Part shown: piece after piece, positions 7,610 through 61,760 of the stretch
How the letters are laid out: every line of letters starts with the position of its first letter
Numbering within the stretch: the first letter of the stretch is position 1
Virus record (IMG/VR): IMGVR_UViG_3300033144_005375
Span: 18,296-82,295 of that record
Length of the DNA: 64,000 bases
Source: a virus
Direction: 5' to 3' (one strand)
Program-made: the position numbers and the translations under genes
Notes under the pieces: generated by a model
Told to the model about the DNA's origin: nothing
The model's database searches: none
The model's input: the letters and a program-made list of their open reading frames with translations, nothing else

Positions 7610-7849
7610 CTACCCACGCCCCATAACTTTGGCGGCTTCGTCTTCGAGCAGGATCCGACGATGGGCCCGAAGATCCGACAAGAAACTGTCGAAGTGGGTG
7701 CCCACCCGGTCGCCCAGGGTGAGGGTCCGAGCGTGTTTGACTACACTGGGGAATTTCTCGAAAGACCAGAACACGTTGCCGTCCTGGTCGGTGTACTGGT
7801 ACATGCGGAGCCCCTTCGTCGAGGATCCTTCTTTCGTGGAATCCGTCAT
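7610..7849 (-). CDS. Hypothetical protein
   Basis: 79-aa ORF with ATGA coupling and a GGAAG RBS. Confidence 0.65.
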   Translation of the reverse strand: MTDSTKEGSSTKGLRMYQYTDQDGNVFWSFEKFPSVVKHARTLTLGDRVGTHFDSFLSDLRAHRRILLEDEAAKVMGRG

Positions 7850-8424
7850 GGTCTTCCACCCTTCTTGGCCTGCGCTTCTTCTCTCTTTTCGTCTTGAAGC
7901 TGTTCGATCATCTCGTCGAGGTCGTCCTCGGTTTTGTCCATCTGGGCGATCTGCTGTTCGATCAAGTCATACGCAGCGTCCGCAACCTGCTCGGGCTTGT
8001 GCGCCTTCTGGGCTTTGGCCATAGCAGCCAAAGACCGCTCGTCAAGGATCTTGGACACCTTTCGCTTGTCGAGGCACTTGCCTTCAAAACGCATGGAACC
8101 GAGGTAACAACCGTCTTTCTGCTTCCTCTTTTTTTTCTTCTTTGACGCAGTTGGGAGCGGCTCTTCACCAGTAGTCGTTGCCTCTACGGAGCCACCATCG
8201 TCGTCAGCAGCCTCGGGGAACCCAAAAAGCTCTTCGCCAGACTCCCCACCGGAAGACATACCGGCAAGCCCTGCTCCAGCCTCATCCTCGTACGCGTCTT
8301 CCGGCTTGTCACCGTCGTCCGATGAAGCCACCACAGCCGCTGCAGTCGGCGAGTCTCTCTCATCGACCTTCGTGCTCTGCGACGAAAGGCAGGAAATCAA
8401 GAGCAGCAAAAAGCTACTGCCCAC
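7846..8424 (-). CDS. Putative lipoprotein with C-terminal coiled coil (possible o-spanin-like)
   Basis: SSFLLLLISC lipobox-like start; overlaps the upstream TM protein gene. Confidence 0.5.
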   Translation of the reverse strand: MGSSFLLLLISCLSSQSTKVDERDSPTAAAVVASSDDGDKPEDAYEDEAGAGLAGMSSGGESGEELFGFPEAADDDGGSVEATTTGEEPLPTASKKKKKRKQKDGCYLGSMRFEGKCLDKRKVSKILDERSLAAMAKAQKAHKPEQVADAAYDLIEQQIAQMDKTEDDLDEMIEQLQDEKREEAQAKKGGRP

Positions 8425-8719
8425 GACGGTCGCGTAGTAGCTTTTTGATCTCATCAATCTTCTCAACCACGTTGTCGAGCTTGCCCTCGAGTCGTACGAG
8501 CGCAAGCGAGTTGTTCTGGACGGAGTCCGTCACATCGGAGAGTTTCATGAAATCCTCCTGGAGTTCCGTGATGCGCTCGTCCTGGATCGCGTTGTTCACC
8601 TCCAGCGTGCCGCCCCAGATGATCAATGGAATGACAAGTGCCGACAGCACCTTCAAGATGATGTCGAGAAACTTCGCTGCGCCGTCTTTTGACGAACTGG
8701 AACTAGAAGAGGAAGGCAT
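8414..8719 (-). CDS. Single-TM coiled-coil protein (holin or i-spanin-like)
   Basis: Hydrophobic segment IILKVLSALVIPLIIWGG followed by a heptad coiled coil. Confidence 0.6.
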   Translation of the reverse strand: MPSSSSSSSSKDGAAKFLDIILKVLSALVIPLIIWGGTLEVNNAIQDERITELQEDFMKLSDVTDSVQNNSLALVRLEGKLDNVVEKIDEIKKLLRDRRGQ

Positions 8720-19271: not shown

Positions 19272-20954
19272 TTACGTCAAGAATTCAGCCAACCGTGTTT
19301 TCACGTTCCCAGGAACGGTCTTGACCTCGGATTCCCAGATCACCAGGCACTCGAGCCCAACCTCAGCGTACGCCTCGATGAGTTCTTGCTCGTGCTCCTC
19401 GGGCCACATATCGGTGAACTTTTCACTATGCCAGTAGTCCCCGTTGACTTCCACTACCTTGCGGAGATCGCGAAAAGGGTGATCAGGGACCGGTCCGCGC
19501 AGCACAAAATCAGGGTTCTTGTGTCGCCCTAGCCGCGGGAGCCATCGCCAAAACCTCCGATCTCCCGTGTACATGAGCCGAGGTTCGAGCTCTTGGACTA
19601 AGCGTTCCGGAACGTTTGGGCCTCGTTGATTGGCCTGGGCATGCAACATCAGTCGAGCGTATTCCCGATCCTGCATCGGGTGCGTCATCCCGTAACGCTC
19701 AACCAGGTCCTCAACCGTCTCGGCGTCCTCGTCGTACGTGGGGAATTCGTGGCCTACTTTGGAAAAGCACTCCCGCAGGATCTTCTCCTTCACCCGCGGC
19801 CATGCAAACGGGTTGTCGTCTCCCCGAAGAACCGGACGCTTGCCTACCAACGCTTCTTGAATCTGGACATAGAGCCGAGATCCCCGCGAGAAGATCTCGG
19901 GATCTCCATATCGTTCAGTGTTTGTCCGACCAGTCTTCCCTCGTGTTTCTTTGTCTTGCTGGGGGTTCTCAACTCCCCACCGGTCCAACATCGTACGCAT
20001 TCGACGAAACCGCGCCACGGCACCAAAATCACGCACCATCCACGCGATACATATCTGCCGGTGACGCTTCATCTGCGTGAGACTTGTACTCTCGTGGCCG
20101 CACAGGCACAGCTCAGGGACCTCTGTGTTAGGCCACCCCTCACAAATCGCCTTGTGGCGACTCGTGACCTTCGTGAAAGCCTCGTCGCAGTGAGGGCAAA
20201 TCTCGTAACTCCCAGAAGCAATCAGGGCTTCTCGATGACGCCGCTCACGCTCGCCACGTTTCCGCGACAACTCCAGAAACCATGCAGGAGCCCGTAAGAA
20301 AGACCGCGCCCCGTGGCGCTCCAAGGTGGTCTGCTCGGTACGTGCCCGAATCTCAGGTACCTGCTGGGGATTCTCGGCGCCGTGCCGCTCCTTCATGGTG
20401 CGCCGGATCTTGGTTTTGATCGGTTCAGAGGCGAAGACGTTCTCGGCCCCGTACCGCTCGAGGTTCGTCTTGGCTCGGCGCCGCTTCACCGCCTTCGCCT
20501 GAAGATGGTGATCGACGCCGTACTTCTTCTGCGCGGCCTGACGGGTCTTCTCTTTAACCTCGTCACTTTGACCGACGTTATCGACGCCGTACTTCTTCTG
20601 CGTCGTCTTCTTACGCTTGGCGCCTGACGACCGAGCAACGACAGGAGCCCTGGGGAACTGAGCTTCGTACTCTTTCCGTTTCATGCCCTCGTGGGCCCGT
20701 TTGAGATGATCACTCAGACGTTTCACACGAATTTGTGTGCCCTCAGCCGCACAGAGAAGGCACCCGACGTAGTCCTCGTTCTCGACCTTCTCAGAAGCCC
20801 ACAGGCCGCGCTGAAAGTGCCTGTCGAAGTTGAACTCCGACGGAGACACCCCAATCACCTCGTCCCATTTGGAGCAGCCGTTCGTGTGCTTCGGGATAGC
20901 CTTGGAAGACGAAAGGACTTTCTGACAAGCGGGGCAGCACACTACCGAAAGCAA
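19272..20954 (-). CDS. Homing-endonuclease-like protein (zinc fingers, YGVxN repeats, Vsr/DUF559-like nuclease)
   Basis: C2H2/C2HC motifs, several (K/R)YG(V/A)xNPxQ repeats, and C-terminal PDF...EVNGDYWH...LVIWESE. Confidence 0.75.
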   Translation of the reverse strand: MLSVVCCPACQKVLSSSKAIPKHTNGCSKWDEVIGVSPSEFNFDRHFQRGLWASEKVENEDYVGCLLCAAEGTQIRVKRLSDHLKRAHEGMKRKEYEAQFPRAPVVARSSGAKRKKTTQKKYGVDNVGQSDEVKEKTRQAAQKKYGVDHHLQAKAVKRRRAKTNLERYGAENVFASEPIKTKIRRTMKERHGAENPQQVPEIRARTEQTTLERHGARSFLRAPAWFLELSRKRGERERRHREALIASGSYEICPHCDEAFTKVTSRHKAICEGWPNTEVPELCLCGHESTSLTQMKRHRQICIAWMVRDFGAVARFRRMRTMLDRWGVENPQQDKETRGKTGRTNTERYGDPEIFSRGSRLYVQIQEALVGKRPVLRGDDNPFAWPRVKEKILRECFSKVGHEFPTYDEDAETVEDLVERYGMTHPMQDREYARLMLHAQANQRGPNVPERLVQELEPRLMYTGDRRFWRWLPRLGRHKNPDFVLRGPVPDHPFRDLRKVVEVNGDYWHSEKFTDMWPEEHEQELIEAYAEVGLECLVIWESEVKTVPGNVKTRLAEFLT

Positions 20955-20992: not shown

Positions 20993-21901
20993 TTACACAA
21001 ACGAGCGGGGCGATAAAATTCCCCGGCCGACCTGGGGACCGAAGGCAGATCGCACACCGAAGCCAAACTTCGGCTGCTGCAACCCACGAATGAATTTCAC
21101 GGTACGCGCCTTGGCCTCTGTGGCCTTGTCGAGCTGCCCCTCAGCGTTCTGCTTCAAACTCTCGTACTTGCTAGACTTCTCGATGCTGAGGCTGATCCCG
21201 CCAATGCTGTAGTCAAACTCGTCGTGCACCCAATTGATGCTGAGCGCGAACAGGGCATGGACGGCAGCACCCCACAGGATGAACGTGCGCCACACCGGCT
21301 TGCGGGCGCACAGATCGTTCAGGGTGCGGATACCCTCCGTCTCCGGCGGCATCGCGTTGAACCAGTCCAGGGCCATCTCGAGGTAGCACAGAAGCTCGTG
21401 GTCCTCCCAGACGTACCCGAAAACCCGGTTGTACTTCTTGATGACCCCCTCCTGCGTAGGAGGGCGGAAATGGTAGTTCCGGTCGGGGTTATTGTCCCGA
21501 AGCATGATCCGGAGTTTTTCGATCAAATCCTTCTCGCACTTCGACAAAAGTCGCTGCCCCAAGGTGCTGGTCGCAGGGTCGATGACCCCAAACTCCTGCA
21601 CGACCTCTTGGACCTCATCCATCAAGGACTTGCGGAACGACCAACGGATTCGGTAGTCGCCCGCAGTGACCCCAGGAGGCACCATGATGGCCGCGTAGTA
21701 CTCGCCCACCGCAGGGTTCTGAGGAGCCCTCTCGGCCGGTCCTACGAGCACCTCGATGCCTGGTGGGCCCTGGCTCTGATCCACGTAGTACAGCGCGTAG
21801 TTGATTTCGGCCGCGTTGCAAGGGACGCCGAGTTCGTCCACCAGGAAGATCTTGAGATCGTTCCTACCGAGTTCTTGCCCAACAGTGAAGCATACGGCCA
21901 C
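20993..21901 (-). CDS. Putative head-tail adaptor or neck protein
   Basis: Ig-like N-terminus (GDYRIRW) and LRIMLRD...EMALDWFN...YSIGGISLS, an adaptor-like layout. Confidence 0.55.
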   Translation of the reverse strand: MAVCFTVGQELGRNDLKIFLVDELGVPCNAAEINYALYYVDQSQGPPGIEVLVGPAERAPQNPAVGEYYAAIMVPPGVTAGDYRIRWSFRKSLMDEVQEVVQEFGVIDPATSTLGQRLLSKCEKDLIEKLRIMLRDNNPDRNYHFRPPTQEGVIKKYNRVFGYVWEDHELLCYLEMALDWFNAMPPETEGIRTLNDLCARKPVWRTFILWGAAVHALFALSINWVHDEFDYSIGGISLSIEKSSKYESLKQNAEGQLDKATEAKARTVKFIRGLQQPKFGFGVRSAFGPQVGRGILSPRSFV

Positions 21902-23460: not shown

Positions 23461-24510
23461 TTACGGGGTGAAAAAGGTTCCGTCGTCGTTGTAAACGACT
23501 ACAGCTTCGCCATTGGGGTTTCCGGCTACACCCCCGTAGACGAAACCATTGTCAGTGAACCCGAGAAGTTCACCTTGTGCGAAAGAAAGAGGGAGCCCGT
23601 CATTGAGGAACAGAGCTCGTAGGGTGCCAACGATGAAACCAGGACCCCCTGCCGTGCCGACCGGAGGTTGCACATCGAAAGTCGTGCCATCCGAATCGAT
23701 CTGGGTGTTGTTGGGGACGAAGTACTGACGCCCCGCAAGGATGTCGAGAACGTCATCGAGCTGCACTGCCGTGATGGCACCCGTAGTCAACGCACCATTG
23801 ATCGCACCCAAAGTGAGAACACCAGCCGCTGAAGTCAGGTCACCAAAAGCGAGAAGCCCCAACACGTCCGACGCATTGGCGTTGGCCTCCACTGCCGTGA
23901 GGGAGTCCGCATCCGCACCACCAGCCATCGGCGTGGAAGTCAGGCTCGCGCTTGTCTGTGCAATCGCAATACTGTTGCCGGCGGTCCCCACAACGTTCGC
24001 CGTGATAGTCACAACGCCCGCAACAGGAACTGCCGTAACGAGCCCCGTCACGGTGCCTGGAGGCGTGCCGTTCAGAGGATCGTTGATGGCTGCAGCGATC
24101 TCCGTCGCAATAGCTGCGACGGAGCCACCGGAAGTGTCCCAGTCATTCGACCCCGGCGTACGTGGAACCGCAGCTCCAGTGTAAAGCTGACCATCCACCG
24201 TGAACGTGTCACCGGGCATCGCAGGGAACGCAATGGCGGTGATGTCACCAACCGCCGCCGCACCGCCCCCATCGTTGACGTTCGTGGCGAACCACCCCGC
24301 CAACCCACGCGCCTCCCGACGCATGATAATGGGTGTGCCGCCGCCTCCCGGCTGCATCACGACGACCGGGTCGTTCTGAACTGGGTCCACGTACTTCGTC
24401 TGGCCTACTGGCTCGAGCGTCAGGTTCCGCAACGAAGTGTTCGGGTCCATATCCAGAATCTGGAGAACCCCAGCCGGAACATCGCTCCGTTTCATGATGA
24501 TGTACGGCAT
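23461..24510 (-). CDS. Putative virion protein, paralogue 3 of 4 (with inserted domain)
   Basis: Same termini as the other paralogues, plus a ~120-aa insert (VTITA...GTAGNSI). Confidence 0.75.
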   Translation of the reverse strand: MPYIIMKRSDVPAGVLQILDMDPNTSLRNLTLEPVGQTKYVDPVQNDPVVVMQPGGGGTPIIMRREARGLAGWFATNVNDGGGAAAVGDITAIAFPAMPGDTFTVDGQLYTGAAVPRTPGSNDWDTSGGSVAAIATEIAAAINDPLNGTPPGTVTGLVTAVPVAGVVTITANVVGTAGNSIAIAQTSASLTSTPMAGGADADSLTAVEANANASDVLGLLAFGDLTSAAGVLTLGAINGALTTGAITAVQLDDVLDILAGRQYFVPNNTQIDSDGTTFDVQPPVGTAGGPGFIVGTLRALFLNDGLPLSFAQGELLGFTDNGFVYGGVAGNPNGEAVVVYNDDGTFFTP

Positions 24511-24957
24511 TGTCAGGGCTCCTTACGGCGTGAAGATGGTTCCGTCGTCGTTGTAAACAGCCACCGCTTCCCCGTTGGGGGTCCCTGCGACGCCTCCGTA
24601 AACGAACCCGCTGTCGAGGAAACCCTCGAGCTCCCCAACGGCGACCGACAGAGTCAGGCCATCGTTCAGGAACAGCACTCGGTTGGTCGCATCGATGAAC
24701 CGAGGCCCCTCGGGCGTACCCACTGCGGGAGCGATCTCGTAGACACCAGCATCTTCGACCAGCGTATCCGCAGGAACGAAATACCGACGCCCAGCCAGGA
24801 TGTCGAGGATATCCGTGAGTTGCCCGGCGACGATGGCACCAGCCGTCAGTGCACCATTGATCGCACCCAAAGTGAGAACACCAGCCGCTGAAGTCAGGTC
24901 ACCAAAAGCGAGAAGCCCCAACACGTCCGACGCATTGGCGTTGGCCTCCACTGCCGT
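23792..24957. repeat. 107-bp exact direct repeat (23792-23898 and 24851-24957)
   Basis: Base-by-base comparison from GCACCATTGATCGC to CCACTGCCGT; the flanks diverge. Confidence 0.9.
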
Positions 24958-25569
24958 CATGCCGCCTGCGTTGACACCACCCGAGAGAGCGGCACCAGAC
25001 ACCGTGAGGTTGGCACCCGTCTCGGCCAGCGTGATGCCGTTGCCTGCCGCACCGTCTTGAACTGCGGTGAGATCACAGGCTCCAGAACCACCGAACACCG
25101 CCGTCACGTAAAGAGACAGACCGACAGGGATGTTATTGATAACACCGGTGAGGTTGGCAGCAGTTGCGTCCTCGGTACTTCCGATCTGCACCTCGAAAAT
25201 CGAAGCTGGTGCATCCCGAAACGTGAGAGTCACATTCGGGCCACCCACAGTAGAAGTTCCGACGGTGGCAGTGTCGCCGTCGATCGCATTGCCAGCCCCT
25301 ACCGTGATGTCACCACTGGCCGCAGTGCCGGCTACGTCAGGGACATTGGTGAAAAACCAGGCAGCAAGTCCTTGAACATCACGGAACACGGTGCGCTCCA
25401 TCCCTGTCGGGATATACGCGACGACCGTTTCGTTGACGACAGGATTGACGTACTTGGTCTGGCCTGGAACGTCCAAGGTCAGGTTCCGGAGGGACGTATT
25501 GGGGTCCAGGTCGAGGACTTGGAGAGTGGCTCCCGGGATGTCACTCCGCTTCATGATGATGTACGGCAT
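24523..25569 (-). CDS. Putative virion protein, paralogue 2 of 4 (with inserted domain)
   Basis: MPYIIMKRSDIP...; insert ending GAAGNGITL...LSGG. Confidence 0.75.
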   Translation of the reverse strand: MPYIIMKRSDIPGATLQVLDLDPNTSLRNLTLDVPGQTKYVNPVVNETVVAYIPTGMERTVFRDVQGLAAWFFTNVPDVAGTAASGDITVGAGNAIDGDTATVGTSTVGGPNVTLTFRDAPASIFEVQIGSTEDATAANLTGVINNIPVGLSLYVTAVFGGSGACDLTAVQDGAAGNGITLAETGANLTVSGAALSGGVNAGGMTAVEANANASDVLGLLAFGDLTSAAGVLTLGAINGALTAGAIVAGQLTDILDILAGRRYFVPADTLVEDAGVYEIAPAVGTPEGPRFIDATNRVLFLNDGLTLSVAVGELEGFLDSGFVYGGVAGTPNGEAVAVYNDDGTIFTP

Positions 25570-51251: not shown

Positions 51252-51773
51252 CTACGCTTGTTTGGCCGCCCACGCCTGGATCTTGCGACGATCCTTGCCC
51301 TTGGCCCGGTCGCTCAGAAGAGTGCCCTCCAGGTGGTCGTACTCGTGCTGGAGGGCCACCGAGAGCAGATGGTTGTGGCTCGAATCCATCGTGACCTCTT
51401 TGCCTTCGCGATCGAAGGCTGTGATCTTCACCCACTCGGGACGGCCTACCTCCGCCAGTAATCCAGGAAAACTGAGACAGCCTTCGGGTCGCACCAGACG
51501 GTTGTCGTTCACGGGCTCGATCACCGGGTTGATGAAAACCCAAGGCTCCGTCCGCTTGTTTCCGTTGATGGGCTTCTGATCGAGGATGAAGATGCGAACG
51601 TTCTGCCCCACCTGGGGAGCGGCCAAACCGACTCCTTCGTGGTAGAACATCGTGTAAATCATGTCGTCGATCAGCCCTTGAAACTGATCGAGTTCGTCCA
51701 AATTCACGGGGATGCTCGCAGCCTTCAACGAGGCAACGGGGTACTCGAGGATGCTGAGCAATTTGCCGGACAC
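51252..51773 (-). CDS. def: Peptide deformylase
   Basis: GVGLAAPQVG, EGCLS and QHEYDHLEG motifs; GTG start 6 nt after GGGTACAGT. Confidence 0.95.
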   Translation of the reverse strand: MSGKLLSILEYPVASLKAASIPVNLDELDQFQGLIDDMIYTMFYHEGVGLAAPQVGQNVRIFILDQKPINGNKRTEPWVFINPVIEPVNDNRLVRPEGCLSFPGLLAEVGRPEWVKITAFDREGKEVTMDSSHNHLLSVALQHEYDHLEGTLLSDRAKGKDRRKIQAWAAKQA

Positions 51774-51876
51774 ACCACGACTGTACCCACATGTCCCACA
51801 ACTATGCGAACCCGACCCCACGATCTTCGCAGGGTCGTCTCCATTTTTGAATACCGGTCTTATGGCCGGTTCTTTA

Positions 51877-52653
51877 GTGACTGTGTCTGATGTAGTGCCC
51901 CTACGTGTTCTCCTCGGAGAGAGCAACCCCGGTGATGTTGCGATCCTGGAACACATTCTCACCGAGATGTCGGTCGAGCTTCGTCATTGCAATTCGTTGG
52001 CAGATCTCGAACAACACGGAAAAACCTGGGACCCCGACGTGGTGCTTCTCGACCTGCACCTCGAAAACAGTCAGGATTTCATGGTGACCGCTCGGAGCGT
52101 CGTCGCACTGTTTCCGAACATCCCCATCCTTGCGCTCACCAGTCTCGACAACGAATCCTTTGCCCTACGCGCACTGCAAGCCGGCCTCTCAAGGTACTTG
52201 ATCAAGGGCACGCTTTCAGGCGCGGACTTGATGCGGACCCTCAAAGAAGCACAGGCGAGACAACGAGCCCTGCAACTCTCGCTACCCCCAACGTTCAACC
52301 AAAACGATCTTCGAGAAATGATCCAGGATGCGGTCCGTACCGCGCTCAGCGAACCGGACGACCCCAAAGAAAAATCATCCGTCAGAATCGCAGTCTTGGT
52401 CGTCGTCTCGGTCTTCCTTCTTCTGGGAGGCGCCGTGGGCTGGGGCTACTACCAGATCCAGCAAGCCCACGACGCCAGGAAACCCGCCAAGAAGACTGAG
52501 CAGGACAAAAAGGCGGACCAGTTCCAGGAGTTCCAGAGCCTCCGCAACGCGCACTTCAAAAAGCTAACGCGTTGGGAGAGCAGTGGAAAACTAGGACCGG
52601 CTCCAAAGAAACCACCGCGCCTCGAACAGCTTGAGCAAGAGCTGTCTAAGTGA
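51877..52653 (+). CDS. Response-regulator receiver domain plus TM protein
   Basis: PDVVLLDLHL, PILALTS and YLIKG receiver motifs, then TM IAVLVVVSVFLLLGGAVGWG. Start uncertain. Confidence 0.75.
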   Translation: MTVSDVVPLRVLLGESNPGDVAILEHILTEMSVELRHCNSLADLEQHGKTWDPDVVLLDLHLENSQDFMVTARSVVALFPNIPILALTSLDNESFALRALQAGLSRYLIKGTLSGADLMRTLKEAQARQRALQLSLPPTFNQNDLREMIQDAVRTALSEPDDPKEKSSVRIAVLVVVSVFLLLGGAVGWGYYQIQQAHDARKPAKKTEQDKKADQFQEFQSLRNAHFKKLTRWESSGKLGPAPKKPPRLEQLEQELSK

Positions 52654-52654
52654 C

Positions 52655-53344
52655 CTAGTGAACCGGAGGGGCCCCTCCCGAACCGGAGCCCGAGCTGTCG
52701 TCGGAATCCGGCACGTCGCTCGTGCCGATGTCGAAGTTACCACCACCACGGTAGCTGGACATGACTTCGCTGACCCCGGCGGATGCAGCGCCCACGTCGG
52801 CCTTGTCGTACATGAGGCGCTTACCCTTGGTGCCCGCCATCATGCGAGCGCCGTCGTCGAACCCCTTCTGGTCCGCGGCCAGGAACAGGAACTCCCAGTT
52901 GTACTTGTCCGTCACGCGACCGATGGCTTCCTGCACATCCTGGGCACTGTTCTCGCGCGAAGAGTTCTCCTGACCGTCGGTGATCATGACGACCACGACC
53001 TTGCCAGGACGATCGGTCTTGGCCTCTTTGAGGATGCGGTCCTCGAGCGACGAAAGAGACTTGACGGCGGCATCGTTGAGCGCGGTTCCTCCACGCGGAA
53101 CGAGGCGGCAGTTGTCCTGCTGGATGTCTCCCGAAGGCTTGGCCTCGAAGACGGTCTCCCACTCGTTGTCGAACTGGTAGAGGCTGACACGGCAGCGGCC
53201 GGGCTGGCCGTGCTGCTCGGTGATGAGGGTCCACAGACCACCTTCCATGTCGTCCTTGATGGAGGACATGGAACCGCTGCGGTCGAGAATAATGGCGACC
53301 TCGGTGAGATCGCTGGTGGGGGGTACTCCGGTTACGTCTGTCAT
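52655..53344 (-). CDS. vWA domain protein
   Basis: MIDAS DRSGSM, GGTALNDA and ITDGQENSS. Confidence 0.9.
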   Translation of the reverse strand: MTDVTGVPPTSDLTEVAIILDRSGSMSSIKDDMEGGLWTLITEQHGQPGRCRVSLYQFDNEWETVFEAKPSGDIQQDNCRLVPRGGTALNDAAVKSLSSLEDRILKEAKTDRPGKVVVVMITDGQENSSRENSAQDVQEAIGRVTDKYNWEFLFLAADQKGFDDGARMMAGTKGKRLMYDKADVGAASAGVSEVMSSYRGGGNFDIGTSDVPDSDDSSGSGSGGAPPVH

Positions 53345-54603: not shown

Positions 54604-55167
54604 TCAGGCCGGACGGTACTGAGTCTCTGCTTGGTCCACAAAAGCGTCGAAAGCTGCGTCATGCTGCTCTTCCGCCTGCTCCTTGAACCGCTGGAACACG
54701 GGATCCGGATCGCCCGCGACCACCTGCACCCCGTCTCCCTCTCCACGAACCCAGTTGACAGCCAAGGCGAACATGGCGTGGGTCACGGCCATCCACACGA
54801 GGCCGTCTCTCCACAAATCGCGGGCCTCCCCCTGGAGCTCCGTGTAGATCGCATCCCCCACCACTTGCTCGGGGTCCCCAGGAAGGAACCCGTTGATCTC
54901 CTCCCCTTCAAGTCGGGCGTTCATCCAGTCGAGGCTCATCTCGACGTACGCACGCAGCTCTTCTTCGGTGAAAACAGGATCGAACGCAAGAGGGTGGCCC
55001 TTCATGCGATCCTTGATGCCCCACTCCCGGAACTGCGAACGCATCGAGCCATAGAAATCCTCGAGCGGGATGAGGTTGTTCGCCGCCTCCGCAATGTTGG
55101 GCAGCATCGCCGCCGTGGCAGCAACTGGAAGAGCGACGATGGCTTTCAGAAGGGCGCGGCGGTGCAT
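54604..55167 (-). CDS. Tat-signal-bearing paralogue of the 20993-21901 neck-like protein
   Basis: MHRRALLK...AEA signal; the core aligns by eye with the C-terminal half of 20993-21901. Confidence 0.7.
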   Translation of the reverse strand: MHRRALLKAIVALPVAATAAMLPNIAEAANNLIPLEDFYGSMRSQFREWGIKDRMKGHPLAFDPVFTEEELRAYVEMSLDWMNARLEGEEINGFLPGDPEQVVGDAIYTELQGEARDLWRDGLVWMAVTHAMFALAVNWVRGEGDGVQVVAGDPDPVFQRFKEQAEEQHDAAFDAFVDQAETQYRPA

Positions 55168-55214
55168 GGTCAACTATACCCCACTCTCCCCCACGAAATA
55201 TCACCCACGTATTT

Positions 55215-55673
55215 TCACGAAGATGTCTCGTTCTTTTCCGTGTACTCGCGAAAAACAACCCCATCGACCTCGCACTTGCCTTCGCACAGTTTGCAGTTGC
55301 TCCGGTACATGAACAGTACCGTCCACCCCACCCCTTTGCAGGCCGGGCACGGAACGGGATCGTAGAAATCGGACGCAAAATTGGGGGAGTAGACGTTGGC
55401 CTCGGCGTCTTTGGGCTTCTCGTACTCGAGCCCGAGCTGCTCCGCGATCTTCTTGACCAAGTCCTCACCTTTGAGGGTCTCCGAGGCTTTGGAGTAGACC
55501 GACTTCAAAGCCTCCTTGAGTTCGTCGTCGTCCATCTCCTTCTCCAGAGCCTTCACGACATCCAGCTTTTTGAGTTCGAGCAGATCGCAGATCGTCTCGA
55601 AGGGCAGAGATTGCTTCACGTACAACCGGTACATGGCGTCCCAGGTGTCGTTCCGGCTGTTGTCGCAACTCAT
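55215..55673 (-). CDS. HTH-like plus DnaJ-type zinc-finger protein
   Basis: LPFETICDLL helix pattern; CPACKGVG and CKLCEGK. Confidence 0.65.
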   Translation of the reverse strand: MSCDNSRNDTWDAMYRLYVKQSLPFETICDLLELKKLDVVKALEKEMDDDELKEALKSVYSKASETLKGEDLVKKIAEQLGLEYEKPKDAEANVYSPNFASDFYDPVPCPACKGVGWTVLFMYRSNCKLCEGKCEVDGVVFREYTEKNETSS

Positions 55674-60653: not shown

Positions 60654-61517
60654 CTACTCCCCGTCCTTTCCAGTTCCTGTTGCCAAGGGACGTGTTCCGT
60701 GCTCCTTGTAGTATTTCCGGATGCCCTTCTCGATGTCCTTGAGGTTGTGGGTTCCCACCCCCCGTTCAGGAAACAATTCGTTGAGATACAGAGGGATCTC
60801 CCGATCCTCACTGCGCAGCACCAATGAGGTCTTCAAAAGAAACTTCATCTGCTCGAGGGTTTCCGCGAAGGTCACTTTGGAGGAGTTACTCTCCCACTGA
60901 CGCAGTAAACGACCGAGCGTTTGAGTCACCCCGCGCCGATAGGCACGTTCCGCGGGACTCTGGGGAGCGAGCCCAGAGGTAGCCGTCTCTTTGGCAACTT
61001 TCCACCTGTTTCCGTTGAACACGTCGCCGAGAGCAACACGTCGCATAGGGGCCATGCTCTTGACCGCCTCCTGCAACGGCTGCCATGCCGCTTCCAAATC
61101 CTCCTTTGAATAGCAAATCGCCATCAACCGAGACGCCAAAATGTGAGGGAGCTCCTCTCCCCGGCAAAGGGCCTCATGGAGACTCACCGCATCAGGGTCT
61201 CCAGAGACTCCCTCACCGTCCTCGTCCAGAAAACTGCGACCAAAATAGTCAATGGGATCGTGAAGCATCGGATCACCAGACCACTCCGCACGCATCAGGA
61301 TGACGCAATAAGGAGCACCCTCCGGCACCGTGCCAGTCGGGAACTTCGAACTGTGCACCGCCTTCGCAATGTTCCAGTTCTTGTAGCCGTGACTTGATGC
61401 TACAGCATGGAGACAGTTGACGTGACCGAGCTCGATGCCCTGTTCCGCGAGATGCTGACGCAGCAGCTTGGCCTGAGTTTTGAGAGATGGGATGGTAGAC
61501 GAATTTGTGCTGTCCAT
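60654..61517 (-). CDS. Protein with an N-terminal Glyoxalase_8-like helical domain and a C-terminal half repeat
   Basis: LKTQAKLLRQHLAEQGIELGHVNCLHAVASSHGYKNWN; ends THNLKDIEKGIRKYYKEHGTRP. Confidence 0.75.
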   Translation of the reverse strand: MDSTNSSTIPSLKTQAKLLRQHLAEQGIELGHVNCLHAVASSHGYKNWNIAKAVHSSKFPTGTVPEGAPYCVILMRAEWSGDPMLHDPIDYFGRSFLDEDGEGVSGDPDAVSLHEALCRGEELPHILASRLMAICYSKEDLEAAWQPLQEAVKSMAPMRRVALGDVFNGNRWKVAKETATSGLAPQSPAERAYRRGVTQTLGRLLRQWESNSSKVTFAETLEQMKFLLKTSLVLRSEDREIPLYLNELFPERGVGTHNLKDIEKGIRKYYKEHGTRPLATGTGKDGE

Positions 61518-61683
61518 GATCGTGATCCTTCCTGGTGAGACCCTTAAGAGTTCCGTGCTCGCGTTACGGGGTCTGGGTCTCGAGGAGTGGTCAACGACCA
61601 GGGTTGGAGACGCAGGGTTCGTCAGCGGAGCTTTACCGAGTCTCCCGGGGGAGATGCGAGCGGTAGGCGCTCCTGATGCCTTC
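61518..61683 (-). ncRNA. Candidate structured leader RNA 2 (possible pseudoknot)
   Basis: Stems AGGC/GCCT, TCTCC/GGAGA, TGGTC/GACCA, GAGACCC/GGGTCTC and CCGT/ACGG; the last loop contains GCGAGC, complementary to upstream GCTCGC. Confidence 0.5.
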
Positions 61684-61760
61684 ACCCCTTCTACCCCATC
61701 TTTTTTCACGAACAGCTCAACGAACGATCAACTGCCCCATCCGGGCTGTCCGAGCCCAGT

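What the first reader, a model, noticed from the sequence alone, without database searches (positions are those of the whole stretch)
54604..55167. Tat-signal-fused copy of the phage's own neck-like protein in the accessory region
Seen: FTEEELRAYVEMSLDWMNA...WRDGLVWMAVTHAMFALAVNWV...FKEQAEEQHD aligns with WEDHELLCYLEMALDWFNA...WRTFILWGAAVHALFALSINWV...LKQNAEGQLD of 20993-21901. The Ig-like N-terminus is replaced by a twin-arginine-like signal (HRRALLK, hydrophobic stretch, AEA) and the C-terminal tail is lost. Inference: an exported or membrane-tethered decoy that could poison assembly of competing phage, mediate exclusion, or bait host sensors.
Basis: partly seen in the sequence, partly recalled or inferred. 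Interest (0 to 1): 0.7.

Follow-up and report, generated by a model that had tools for sequence, protein, structure and literature searches.

The report
Export-tagged copy of phage neck adaptor
A fragment of a huge marine phage carries, away from its particle genes, a small conserved gene that joins a folded-protein (Tat) export signal to a stripped-down copy of the phage's own head-to-tail adaptor; this gene design was not found in the papers searched, and its job is still unknown.

Summary
The ORF at 54604-55167 (minus strand, 187 aa from the conserved ATG) is homologous to the core of the 302-aa protein at 20993-21901 (BLASTP E 7e-15; profile-profile 98.8%). Its model matches phage head-to-tail adaptors (best Z 11.1; the best 24 rows are all phage tail or neck entries).

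It lacks the adaptor's Ig-like N-domain and its conserved C-terminal tail. Instead it has MHRRALLK, a hydrophobic stretch and AEA.

A profile search of 1.84 billion proteins found a small family. 12 of 15 aligned members carry RR-type leaders ending in small-x-Ala. The other three are N-terminally short. 4 of 15 hit Pfam TAT_signal, but the window's own copy does not.

The gene is under purifying selection. Its gene neighbourhood is conserved in four related contigs.

A complex model puts the mature domain against the true adaptor core (score 0.85, best control 0.01). This may only reflect likeness to solved adaptor rings.

Export is well supported but untested, and the function is open. This scan noted similar export-tagged copies of virion parts in other phages, some of them huge. 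Six literature searches found no description.

The parts
54604..55167 (-). Gene for the 187-aa Tat-leader plus adaptor-core protein (stop codon 54604-54606)
   Evidence: ORF list. Five relatives at 54-97% identity and more distant ones. dN/dS is 0.012/0.066 against L001, 0.236/0.754 against L002, and 0.010/0.096 between L003 and L004.
55084..55167 (-). Predicted signal peptide, residues 1-28: MHRRALLK, uncharged h-region, PNIAEA, with cleavage predicted after A28
   Evidence: Sequence. RR leaders ending in small-x-Ala in 12 of 15 aligned family members and in P0138. PF10518 hits 4 of 15 members and TIGR01409 4 of 15, but not this copy. pLDDT is under 50 for residues 1-25.
54607..55083 (-). Mature domain, residues 29-187: helical adaptor core with two small hairpins
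   Evidence: AF2 model with mean pLDDT 81.9. VIA-align Z 11.1, rmsd 3.2 over 114 residues to the KHP30 tail chain, and all 24 best rows are phage tail, neck or portal-adaptor entries. The alignments start at model residues 25-36 and at chain residues 1-20, mostly 1-2.
55173..55181 (-). GGGTATAGT element, 5 nt upstream of the ATG
   Evidence: GGTA-N3-(T/G)-N5-ATG is kept in 5 of 5 loci. The motif [GC]GGTANNNT occurs 20 times on the minus strand and 7 times on the plus strand of the window. Its role as promoter or translation signal was not tested.
20993..21901 (-). 302-aa parent-type protein: the phage's head-to-tail adaptor/neck protein (Ig-like domain 1-110, helical core about 115-264, conserved tail 265-302)
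   Evidence: 1697 relatives at E <= 0.01. The Tunturi_5 homolog is annotated head-tail connector and lies upstream of the tail terminator and sheath genes. Model residues 120-225 match cyanophage adaptor chains at Z 7.0-7.5, and residues 1-110 match Ig/macroglobulin sandwiches at Z up to 9.3.
20996..21109 (-). C-terminal tail of the adaptor (residues 265-302), absent from the paralog
   Evidence: Rich in invariant columns across 29 adaptor sequences. The paralog ends at the position aligned to about residue 264. The portal-embracing role is inferred from solved adaptors (recalled, not tested).
55215..55673 (-). Conserved upstream neighbour, 152 aa, with CxxCxGxG-type zinc-finger motifs
   Evidence: A homolog lies upstream of the paralog gene in 4 of 4 related loci, directly in L001 and L002 and about 830 nt away in L003 and L004. 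Pfam hits are only sub-threshold (DUF1871, DnaJ_CXXCXGXG E 0.028). Membership in the same functional unit is not shown.

Best explanation
This is a functional, conserved accessory gene of a huge marine myophage. It encodes a precursor with a twin-arginine (Tat) signal peptide of 28 residues, followed by a 159-residue copy of the helical core of the phage's head-to-tail adaptor.

The copy has lost what seem to be the adaptor's virion attachments. These are the Ig-like N-domain, the conserved RxxLRDxxPDxxYxFRPP and FxYSIGGxSL segments, and the conserved C-terminal tail.

Proposed course of events:
- The protein folds in the cytoplasm.
- The host Tat system carries it across the inner membrane.
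- Signal peptidase I cuts it after Ala-Glu-Ala.
- It then acts in the periplasm as a non-virion protein.

It keeps the two helices that carry most of the residues shared with the adaptor. In the complex model these helices form the side-by-side subunit contact, so it probably still self-associates or binds adaptor-type subunits.

Shown here: homology, fold, loss of the end domains, conservation of the leader, purifying selection and conserved gene context.

Inferred: actual export and cleavage, and the oligomeric state.

Guessed: the role. My best guess (about 0.25-0.3) is envelope-level interference with incoming related phages, in the manner of periplasmic superinfection-exclusion proteins.
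For: Homology and fold:
- BLASTP E 7e-15 and hhalign 98.8%.
- The family profile hits only two places in the own record.
- The AF2 model has pLDDT 81.9.
- All 24 best VIA rows are phage tail, neck or portal-adaptor entries, with a top Z of 11.1, rmsd 3.2 over 114 aligned residues.

Leader:
- MHRRALLK plus an uncharged stretch plus AEA.
- Distant relatives at about 30% identity carry DRRTFVK, NRRSFVK, IRRSFLK and QRRAFV, each followed by a Gly/Ala-rich stretch and small-x-Ala.
- 12 of 15 aligned members have such a leader. The three without are N-terminally shorter calls, and a full-length member of the cluster of one of them, P0138, has the leader.
- The residue before the predicted cut is always Ala. 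The residue two before it varies (E, R, K, S, A, N, Q, H). This fits signal peptidase I and not a Glu-specific prohead protease (protease rules recalled).
- PF10518 hits 4 of 15 members (best E 8.6e-4) and TIGR01409 hits 4 of 15 (best 0.0045).
- The Atlas feature search lists Tat-signal protein clusters in 4 of 5 rows shown. Scores are 0.79-0.84, so this is a lead only.

Real gene:
- dN/dS is about 0.1-0.3, in the leader as well.
- Gene order is conserved in 4 of 4 metagenome loci.
- The same ATG start is used in 5 of 5 loci.

Non-virion setting:
- Neighbours are Tpt1, RNase HII, NADAR, peptide deformylase, VWA, RHH and DUF6794 proteins.

Contact with the adaptor:
- Complex prediction with adaptor residues 115-302 and paralog residues 29-187 scored 0.85, against 0.01 for the best of 3 controls.
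- That mark was reached by 58 of 80 solved complexes and 2 of 110 mismatched pairs. The counts hold only roughly because my own alignments were used.
- The runs agree in at least 55% of contacts, and the partner's pLDDT is at least 83.
- Residues of that interface are more conserved in the paralog family than the rest of the mature domain: mean BLOSUM pair score 2.50 against 1.27, permutation p 0.0027.
Against: - The window's own leader is not reported by PF10518 or TIGR01409 even at E <= 10. It has Leu where the consensus has Phe.
- No dedicated predictor (SignalP, TatP) was available.
- The host is unknown, so the presence of a Tat system cannot be checked. No TatA-type gene was found in the record, which is only about 16% complete.
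- Foldseek found no PDB or BFVD match at E <= 0.001. Z 11 is below the roughly 13 that the tool's note asks of helical bundles, so the fold call leans on the uniformity of the hit list and on sequence homology.
- The complex pass may come from likeness to the many solved adaptor rings. Interface helices are also core helices, which inflates the conservation test.
- No periplasmic target for an adaptor-type domain is known. If the protein binds the phage's own adaptor before export, it would harm the phage's own assembly unless the two are separated in time.
- An earlier claim of this scan of the same type (Tat export of capsid-piece decoys, e1-3266402) was marked down on later checking.
Confidence: 0.5

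Rival explanations
1. The protein acts on the adaptor in the cytoplasm, before or instead of export. It would bind adaptor subunits through the retained side-by-side interface. It would then either carry them out as a Tat 'hitchhiker' cargo or cap and poison growing adaptor rings, of the phage itself as a timing device or of co-infecting relatives.
For: - The complex model scored 0.85, against 0.01 for the best of 3 controls. That mark was reached by 58 of 80 solved complexes and 2 of 110 mismatched pairs. The runs agree in at least 55% of contacts and partner pLDDT is at least 83.
- The interface is enriched in family-conserved residues.
- All 13 leaders seen are of the Tat type, the one pathway that moves folded proteins and complexes (pathway property from established knowledge).
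- The adaptor is 60-93% identical among the relatives listed, so one binder could reach many related phages.
Against: - The pass may only reflect likeness to solved homomeric adaptor rings.
- Binding its own adaptor would cost the phage.
- There is no evident use for an adaptor in the periplasm.
- The paralog lacks the tail and hairpin segments that are invariant in adaptors.
- Expression timing is unknown.
Confidence: 0.2
2. The leader is not cleaved. It works as an N-in signal anchor, as in Rieske-type Tat substrates, and holds the adaptor-like domain on the periplasmic face of the inner membrane.
For: - The segment right after the predicted cut (NLIPLE) is invariant among the close relatives, and LPN just before it is too. 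This is unusual for a region that is simply removed.
- The AF2 model places a short helix at residues 24-31 across the predicted site.
- The Atlas feature list includes a Rieske Tat-signal cluster at score 0.79, a lead only.
Against: - The small-x-Ala motif is kept at the same place in all 12 leaders of the alignment, although the rest of the c-region varies.
- The h-region is short (about 13-15 uncharged residues), contains Pro and is Gly/Ala-rich in distant members. That is typical of cleaved Tat signals and poor for a stable membrane span (general knowledge).
Confidence: 0.12
3. The N-terminal segment is not an export signal at all. The protein would be a cytoplasmic or virion-associated second neck subunit, with the hydrophobic segment serving as a propeptide or interaction helix.
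For: - The window's own copy is not recognised by the Tat-signal HMMs.
- T4-type necks use two related neck proteins (recalled; PDB 9lu4 appears at Z 6.0).
- The complex model would also fit a mixed ring.
Against: - The RR pair is invariant, followed by F/L then L/V and often K/R, and 4 of 15 members hit the Tat HMMs.
- The cut-site residues fit signal peptidase, not a Glu-directed prohead protease.
- The gene lies among non-structural genes, 33 kb from the neck module.
- It has no portal-binding tail.
- Only about 16 relatives were found, against 1697 for the adaptor. The profile finds no second copy in one 485-kb relative and no match at all in a 309-kb phage, so the gene is not a core virion part.
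Confidence: 0.1
4. It is a decaying duplicate without a function of its own.
For: Low identity to the parent (31%) and loss of both end domains.
Against: - Purifying selection across pairs from 2% to 46% protein divergence.
- Intact frames in all five loci.
- A confident compact fold.
- The leader is kept down to about 30% identity.
Confidence: 0.03

Closest known systems
Phage head-to-tail adaptor proteins (T7 gp11 / P22 gp4 / HK97 gp6 / SPP1 gp15 type; solved examples: KHP30 7wmp_m, cyanophage A4 9k09_d, Pa223 9nwi_A, HRP29 8es4_C, Sf6 gp7, P22 gp4, HK97 gp6 3jvo, T4 gp13/gp14 9lu4)
   Same: The helical-bundle core is the same (Z 11.1 down to about 6). The alignments begin at the very N-terminus of the solved adaptors and at the predicted mature N-terminus of this protein. 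There is clear sequence homology to this phage clade's own adaptor family.
   Different: It carries an N-terminal export-type signal. It has no C-terminal tail; in solved adaptors that tail embraces the portal (recalled). It lacks the other segments that are invariant in the 302-aa family. It is encoded among accessory genes, and it is rare where the adaptor is universal.
Bacterial Tat signal peptides (Pfam PF10518 TAT_signal, NCBIfam TIGR01409; consensus S/T-R-R-x-F-L-K, recalled)
   Same: An RR pair followed by hydrophobic-hydrophobic-K/R, a moderately hydrophobic Gly/Ala-rich h-region, and a small-x-Ala end. Some members have a basic residue in the c-region. 4 of 15 family members score with each HMM.
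   Different: It is phage-encoded and attached to a virion-protein fold, not to a redox enzyme or hydrolase. The window's own copy falls below HMM reporting. At 28 residues it is short for a Tat signal (length norm recalled).
Tat 'hitchhiker' carriers such as the E. coli hydrogenase-2 small subunit HybO with HybC, or DmsA with DmsB (established knowledge, recalled)
   Same: A signal-bearing subunit predicted to bind a signal-less partner in the cytoplasm. The top Atlas feature row is a periplasmic [Fe] hydrogenase small subunit cluster, at score 0.84, a lead only.
   Different: There is no cofactor and no evidence that the partner leaves the cytoplasm. The predicted partner is a virion protein needed inside the cell.
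Periplasmic or envelope superinfection-exclusion proteins of phages (T4 Sp and Imm, T5 Llp, TP-J34 Ltp; recalled)
   Same: A small, phage-encoded, non-virion protein sent to the envelope.
   Different: No sequence or fold likeness was found. Those proteins use Sec or lipoprotein signals, and none is a copy of a virion part. No function was tested here.
Earlier notes of this scan on other phages, some huge: e1-5358394 (Tat-tagged portal-clip plus gp13-core protein), e1-3266402 and e1-3437571 (Tat-type leader plus capsid pieces)
   Same: The same design: a twin-arginine-type leader joined to a trimmed copy of one of the phage's own virion proteins, encoded away from the virion genes.
   Different: These are different protein families and phage lineages, and their sequences were not compared here. 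One of the notes lost part of its claim on later checking.

Membership tests
Phage head-to-tail adaptor (gp4/gp6/gp11/gp15-type) | Adaptor helical-bundle fold | tested here: met
   VIA-align over 48,161 chains. The 24 best rows are all phage tail, neck or portal-adaptor entries. Top Z is 11.1, rmsd 3.2 over 114 aligned residues. Foldseek alone found nothing at E <= 0.001.
Phage head-to-tail adaptor (gp4/gp6/gp11/gp15-type) | Sequence homology to an adaptor family | tested here: met
   BLASTP E 7e-15 and hhalign 98.8% to the 302-aa family. That family is called an adaptor from the Tunturi_5 annotation and gene order and from fold rows at Z 7.0-7.5.
Phage head-to-tail adaptor (gp4/gp6/gp11/gp15-type) | C-terminal extension that binds the portal | tested here: not met
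   The protein ends 10 residues after the end of the aligned last helix. The 38-residue tail that is rich in invariant columns in 29 adaptors has no counterpart.
Phage head-to-tail adaptor (gp4/gp6/gp11/gp15-type) | Encoded in the head/neck/tail module and universal in the lineage | tested here: not met
   It lies 33 kb from the neck gene, among Tpt1, NADAR, deformylase, VWA and RHH genes. About 16 relatives were found against 1697. No second copy was found in LR745208 and no match in Tunturi_5.
Phage head-to-tail adaptor (gp4/gp6/gp11/gp15-type) | Present in the virion between portal and tail | not testable with these tools
   This needs virion proteomics or cryo-EM.
Tat (twin-arginine) signal peptide | Twin-arginine motif close to S/T-R-R-x-F-L-K near the N-terminus | tested here: met
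   H-R-R-A-L-L-K at residues 2-8. The RR pair is invariant in 12 of 12 leaders of alignment A3, and distant members read RRTFVK, RRSFLK and RRSFVK. The consensus is recalled.
Tat (twin-arginine) signal peptide | Uncharged h-region of 13 or more residues after the motif, and a small-x-small cleavage site | tested here: met
   My own rule-based scan found an uncharged run with mean Kyte-Doolittle hydropathy 1.95. A-E-A at residues 26-28, with small-x-Ala at the aligned place in all 12 leaders.
Tat (twin-arginine) signal peptide | Recognition by the curated models PF10518 / TIGR01409 | tested here: inconclusive
   The window's copy has no hit at E <= 10. 4 of 15 family members hit each model, with best E 8.6e-4 and 0.0045. 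Short models are often lost to HMMER's filters.
Tat (twin-arginine) signal peptide | Tat-dependent export and cleavage in a host | not testable with these tools
   The host is unknown and the record is about 16% complete. No SignalP or TatP was available.
Tat hitchhiker carrier subunit | Binds a signal-less partner before export | tested here: inconclusive
   The complex model with the true adaptor scored 0.85 against a best control of 0.01, but likeness to solved adaptor rings may explain the pass. Co-export was not tested.
Superinfection-exclusion proteins | Blocks entry of related phages when expressed | not testable with these tools
   No assay was possible. PADLOC (host defence models, not exclusion proteins) gave 0 hits for 6 of 6 proteins of the neighbourhood.

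The most novel reading that the evidence does not exclude
Huge phages use the host Tat pathway to place folded, trimmed copies of their own head-tail connector parts in the periplasm. This copy is the adaptor's ring-forming core; other phages, according to earlier notes of this scan, do the same with portal clip, gp13, gp15 and capsid pieces. In the periplasm these copies would assemble through the retained subunit interface into a structure that intercepts the tails, or the proteins ejected through the neck channel, of superinfecting relatives. That would be a new class of virion-mimicking exclusion device.
Probability: 0.2. Interest if true: 0.85.

Novelty: new variant of a known kind. Interest (0 to 1): 0.66.

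Why it matters
Virion proteins are normally thought of as cytoplasmic building blocks. A conserved, selected gene that puts a trimmed adaptor core behind a folded-protein export signal would mean that phages reuse connector parts outside the cytoplasm.

With the similar notes from other phages in this scan, it points to a recurrent and undescribed design: a Tat leader plus a piece of the phage's own particle.

It is directly testable with standard tools, namely leader-reporter fusions in tat mutants, fractionation, pull-down with the adaptor, and plating of related phages. It could uncover a new way in which large phages defend an infected cell against competitors or remodel the envelope. It also gives annotators a concrete family to separate from true adaptors.

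Tried and rejected
Family and defence libraries:
- Pfam, PHROGs and NCBIfam on the two proteins gave nothing useful. The only rows were DUF624 at E 0.06 and a connector PHROG at E 0.43.
- PADLOC gave 0 hits for 6 of 6 neighbourhood proteins.
- A PDB sequence search with the adaptor profile gave 0 hits at E <= 1.

Fold searches:
- Foldseek against PDB and BFVD had no row at E <= 0.001 for the paralog model. Weak rows included Sf6 gp7, the T1 adaptor, phage G Gp165, 'Tail accessory factor GP4' and the SP-15 neck protein.
- Foldseek for the adaptor model mostly returned Ig-like domains.

Context of relatives:
- Viral-contig scans with A1 and A4 found no relative.
- The genome-contig scan with the adaptor profile found 9 loci in MAGs labelled as eight different phyla-level groups. 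I read these as mis-binned phage contigs, so they give no host clue.

Host Tat genes:
- No TatA/B/E family match in the own record, which is about 16% complete, so this says nothing.

Expression:
- No RNA holder was listed among 21 runs.
- The stretch is held at half or more of its sampled words by 7 runs from 3 studies of marine sediment, cold seep and unlabelled samples, and by 2 seawater runs exactly at half. The best holder may be the source sample.

Prohead-protease propeptide idea:
- Rejected, because the residue before the predicted cut is always Ala and Glu at the -2 position is not conserved.

Haloarchaeal host idea (a Tat-rich secretome):
- Dropped, because neighbouring proteins are strongly basic. 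This is reasoning only.

Literature:
- Six full-text searches found no paper on phage-encoded Tat-tagged copies of virion proteins. 'huge phages' plus 'twin-arginine' returned 0 papers.
- I read matched passages only in three papers. The preprint 10.64898/2026.10.24.761521 had no occurrence of Tat, twin-arginine, adaptor or periplasm. The review PMC13673990 had four 'phage' passages, none on phage Tat substrates. The preprint 10.64898/2026.09.13.751334 concerned host fimbriae.
- All other papers were seen as search listings only. Supplements were not opened.
Full report
**Setting.** The window is bases 18296-82295 of an 82,295-base linear virus record. CheckV rates the record about 16% complete, so this is a fragment of a much larger phage genome. 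G+C is 58.7% and nearly all plausible genes are on the minus strand. Earlier notes of this scan on the same record describe a giant tail-sheath gene (e1-6131430, not rechecked here). The stretch around the finding occurs in several marine sediment, cold-seep and seawater data sets.

**The observation.** The ORF tool lists 54604-55173 (minus strand, 189 aa from a TTG). The ATG at 55167 is the start used by all relatives. In 5 of 5 loci it is preceded by GGTA-N3-(T/G)-N5, so the protein has 187 residues.

BLASTP against the 302-aa product of 20993-21901 gives 31% identity over 124 columns, E 7e-15. Profile against profile gives 98.8% probability and E 4.4e-17. A six-frame search of the whole record with the paralog-family profile finds only these two genes.

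**What the 302-aa protein is.** It has 1697 relatives at E <= 0.01, many above 60% identity. They include a gene annotated 'head-tail connector protein' in the 309-kb Tunturiibacter phage Tunturi_5. That gene lies upstream of the tail terminator and tail sheath genes. Relatives also include gp165 of Bacillus phage G and a gene in the 485-kb record LR745208.

Its AF2 model is mediocre (pLDDT 68). Residues 1-110 form an Ig/macroglobulin-type sandwich (Z up to 9.3). Residues 120-225 match cyanophage portal-adaptor chains (Z 7.0-7.5). Residues 265-302 are rich in invariant columns. From recalled knowledge of solved adaptors, I read this tail as the part that embraces the portal.

I therefore accept 'neck-like' and sharpen it to head-to-tail adaptor. 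This rests on annotation, gene order and fold, not on an experiment.

**What the 187-aa protein is.** Its AF2 model is good (mean pLDDT 81.9, with residues 1-25 below 50). Foldseek finds nothing at E <= 0.001. The exhaustive VIA-align search returns phage tail, neck or portal-adaptor entries in all 24 best rows:
- KHP30 at Z 11.1, rmsd 3.2 over 114 residues.
- Then cyanophage A4, Pa223, HRP29, Carin-1, SU10, GP4, VP1, P74-26, PhiM1 and others.
- Further down, Sf6 gp7, P22 gp4 and T4 gp13/gp14, with HK97 gp6 at rank 29.

The alignments run from model residue 25-36 and from chain residues 1-20, mostly 1-2. The predicted mature protein therefore begins where ordinary adaptors begin.

Z 11 is below the tool's caution mark for helical bundles. 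The fold call stands on the uniform hit list together with the sequence homology.

Against the adaptor family, the paralog keeps the residues of two helices (ELxxYxEMxLDWxNA and WxxxxxWxAxxHAxFALxxNW). It has lost the Ig-like domain, the invariant RxxLRDxxPDxxYxFRPP and FxYSIGGxSL segments, and the tail.

**The leader.** Residues 1-28 read MHRRALLK, then AIVALPVAATAAML, then PNIAEA. The close relatives (54-97% identity, 5 proteins) keep MHRR(A/S)LL(K/R), vary the hydrophobic stretch, and keep LPNI(A/S)xA.

A profile search of 1.84 billion representatives found 15 proteins at E <= 0.001. Two of these are repeat-rich, probably spurious hits, and one is a true adaptor. The remaining distant members, at about 30% identity, begin with:
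- MDRRTFVK
- MHRRALLR
- MQRRAFVT
- MQRRTFVT
- MNRRSFVK
- MIRRSFLK

Each is followed by a Gly/Ala-rich stretch and ASA, VEA, SAA, ANA, AQA or AHA.

In alignment A3, 12 of 15 members have such a leader. The three without are shorter at the N-terminus:
- P0003 starts inside the leader.
- P0135 has a full-length cluster mate, P0138, that carries the leader.
- P0137 comes from a 665-base contig.

P0130 has about 150 extra residues between the leader and the core.

PF10518 and TIGR01409 each hit 4 of the 15 members (best E 8.6e-4 and 0.0045). They do not hit the window's own copy. The ESM Atlas feature search lists Tat-signal clusters in 4 of the 5 rows shown, at scores of 0.79-0.84, which the tool rates as leads only.

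The residue at the cut is always Ala, while the residue two before it varies freely. This fits signal peptidase I and argues against a Glu-directed prohead protease (protease rules recalled).

I could not run SignalP or TatP.

**Is it a live gene?** Nei-Gojobori estimates give the following:
- dN/dS 0.012/0.066 against the 97% relative.
- dN/dS 0.236/0.754 against the 65% relative.
- dN/dS 0.010/0.096 between the two 54% relatives.
- Similar values within the leader codons.

The neighbourhood is kept in four metagenome contigs: a 152-aa zinc-finger-like protein upstream, then small proteins downstream (84 aa, DUF6794, 105 aa, an RHH-like protein and a VWA protein). Extra genes are inserted after the paralog in two lineages.

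The wider region encodes Tpt1, DUF488, RNase HII, a GyrB-like protein, NADAR and peptide deformylase.

The gene is rare. There are about 16 relatives against 1697 for the adaptor. The family profile finds only the adaptor in LR745208 and nothing in Tunturi_5.

**Contact with the true adaptor.** Complex prediction was run with adaptor residues 115-302 and paralog residues 29-187, both given as alignments. Results:
- It scored 0.85 in three runs, against 0.01 for the best of 3 controls.
- That mark was reached by 58 of 80 solved complexes and 2 of 110 mismatched pairs. The counts hold only roughly because my own alignments were used.
- The runs agree in at least 55% of contacts, and partner pLDDT is at least 83.

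The interface uses the two conserved helices on each side. Its paralog residues are more conserved in the family than the rest of the mature domain (2.50 against 1.27, permutation p 0.0027).

Two cautions apply. Many adaptor rings have been solved, so the pass may show likeness and not binding by this copy. Interface helices are also core helices.

**Reading.** The shown facts are an old, selected, rare paralog of the adaptor core, without what seem to be the adaptor's virion attachments, behind a family-wide twin-arginine-type signal.

The most economical mechanism has three steps:
- The protein folds in the cytoplasm.
- It is exported by the host Tat system and cleaved.
- It acts outside the cytoplasm, with the adaptor-type side contact retained for self-association or for binding adaptor-like partners.

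The role is a guess. I favour envelope-level exclusion of related phages at about 0.25-0.3.

The rivals are:
- Cytoplasmic binding of the adaptor, as hitchhiker or assembly brake (0.2).
- An uncleaved membrane anchor (0.12).
- No export at all (0.1).
- A decaying duplicate (0.03).

**Relation to earlier notes and to print.** This scan has noted the same design on other DNA. One phage, described there as huge, has a Tat-type leader on a portal-clip/gp13-core protein (e1-5358394). Others have Tat-type leaders on capsid pieces (e1-3266402, e1-3437571). The bold reading of e1-3266402 was marked down on a later check. I did not test those notes; they are context, not support.

Six full-text searches found no paper describing such genes.

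**Verdict.** I class this as a new variant of known kinds (adaptor fold plus Tat signal). It is moderately to highly interesting because it is conserved, recurrent across phages and directly testable.

Noticed in passing
window 7846-8505 (-): A 219-aa ORF whose N-terminus has RR, a hydrophobic stretch and a lipobox-like L-I-S-C. It is a candidate phage lipoprotein and the only other coding-strand hit of my signal scan.
   Followed up: no
window 19272-20954 (-): A 560-aa protein with homing-endonuclease PHROG hits (E 2.5e-24) and DUF7487 (E 3.5e-26). It sits directly downstream of the adaptor gene, inside the neck/tail module.
   Followed up: no
window 23461-24510 and 24523-25569 (-): Two adjacent proteins of 349 and 348 aa, both with weak tail-sheath PHROG hits (phrog_165, E 0.003 and 0.0002). 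They look like tandem paralogs.
   Followed up: no
window 55215-55673 (-): The 152-aa upstream neighbour has CxxCxGxG-type zinc-finger motifs (DnaJ_CXXCXGXG, E 0.028, sub-threshold). It is kept upstream of the Tat-tagged gene in 4 of 4 related loci. It could be a dedicated chaperone, but this was not tested.
   Followed up: partly
window minus strand, e.g. 55181, 55688, 54342, 51788, 45011: [GC]GGTANNNT occurs 20 times on the minus strand and 7 times on the plus strand, several times 5-6 nt before start codons. The copy before this gene is conserved in related loci. This matches first-reader note e1-6131446. The leaderless-mRNA idea was not tested.
   Followed up: partly
protein P0130 (305 aa): A family member with about 150 extra residues inserted between the Tat-type leader and the adaptor core. 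This suggests the leader plus first strand acts as a portable module.
   Followed up: no
L002 5603-6481 and L003 1684-3144: In two related lineages, a gene of 292 or 486 aa is inserted right after the Tat-tagged gene. A stretch of 49-59 residues is 55% identical to part of the product of window 60654-61709.
   Followed up: no
window 51252-51962 (-) and 52655-53344 (-): A phage-encoded peptide deformylase (E 2.1e-41) and a VWA-domain protein (E 1.9e-9) lie in the same accessory block.
   Followed up: no
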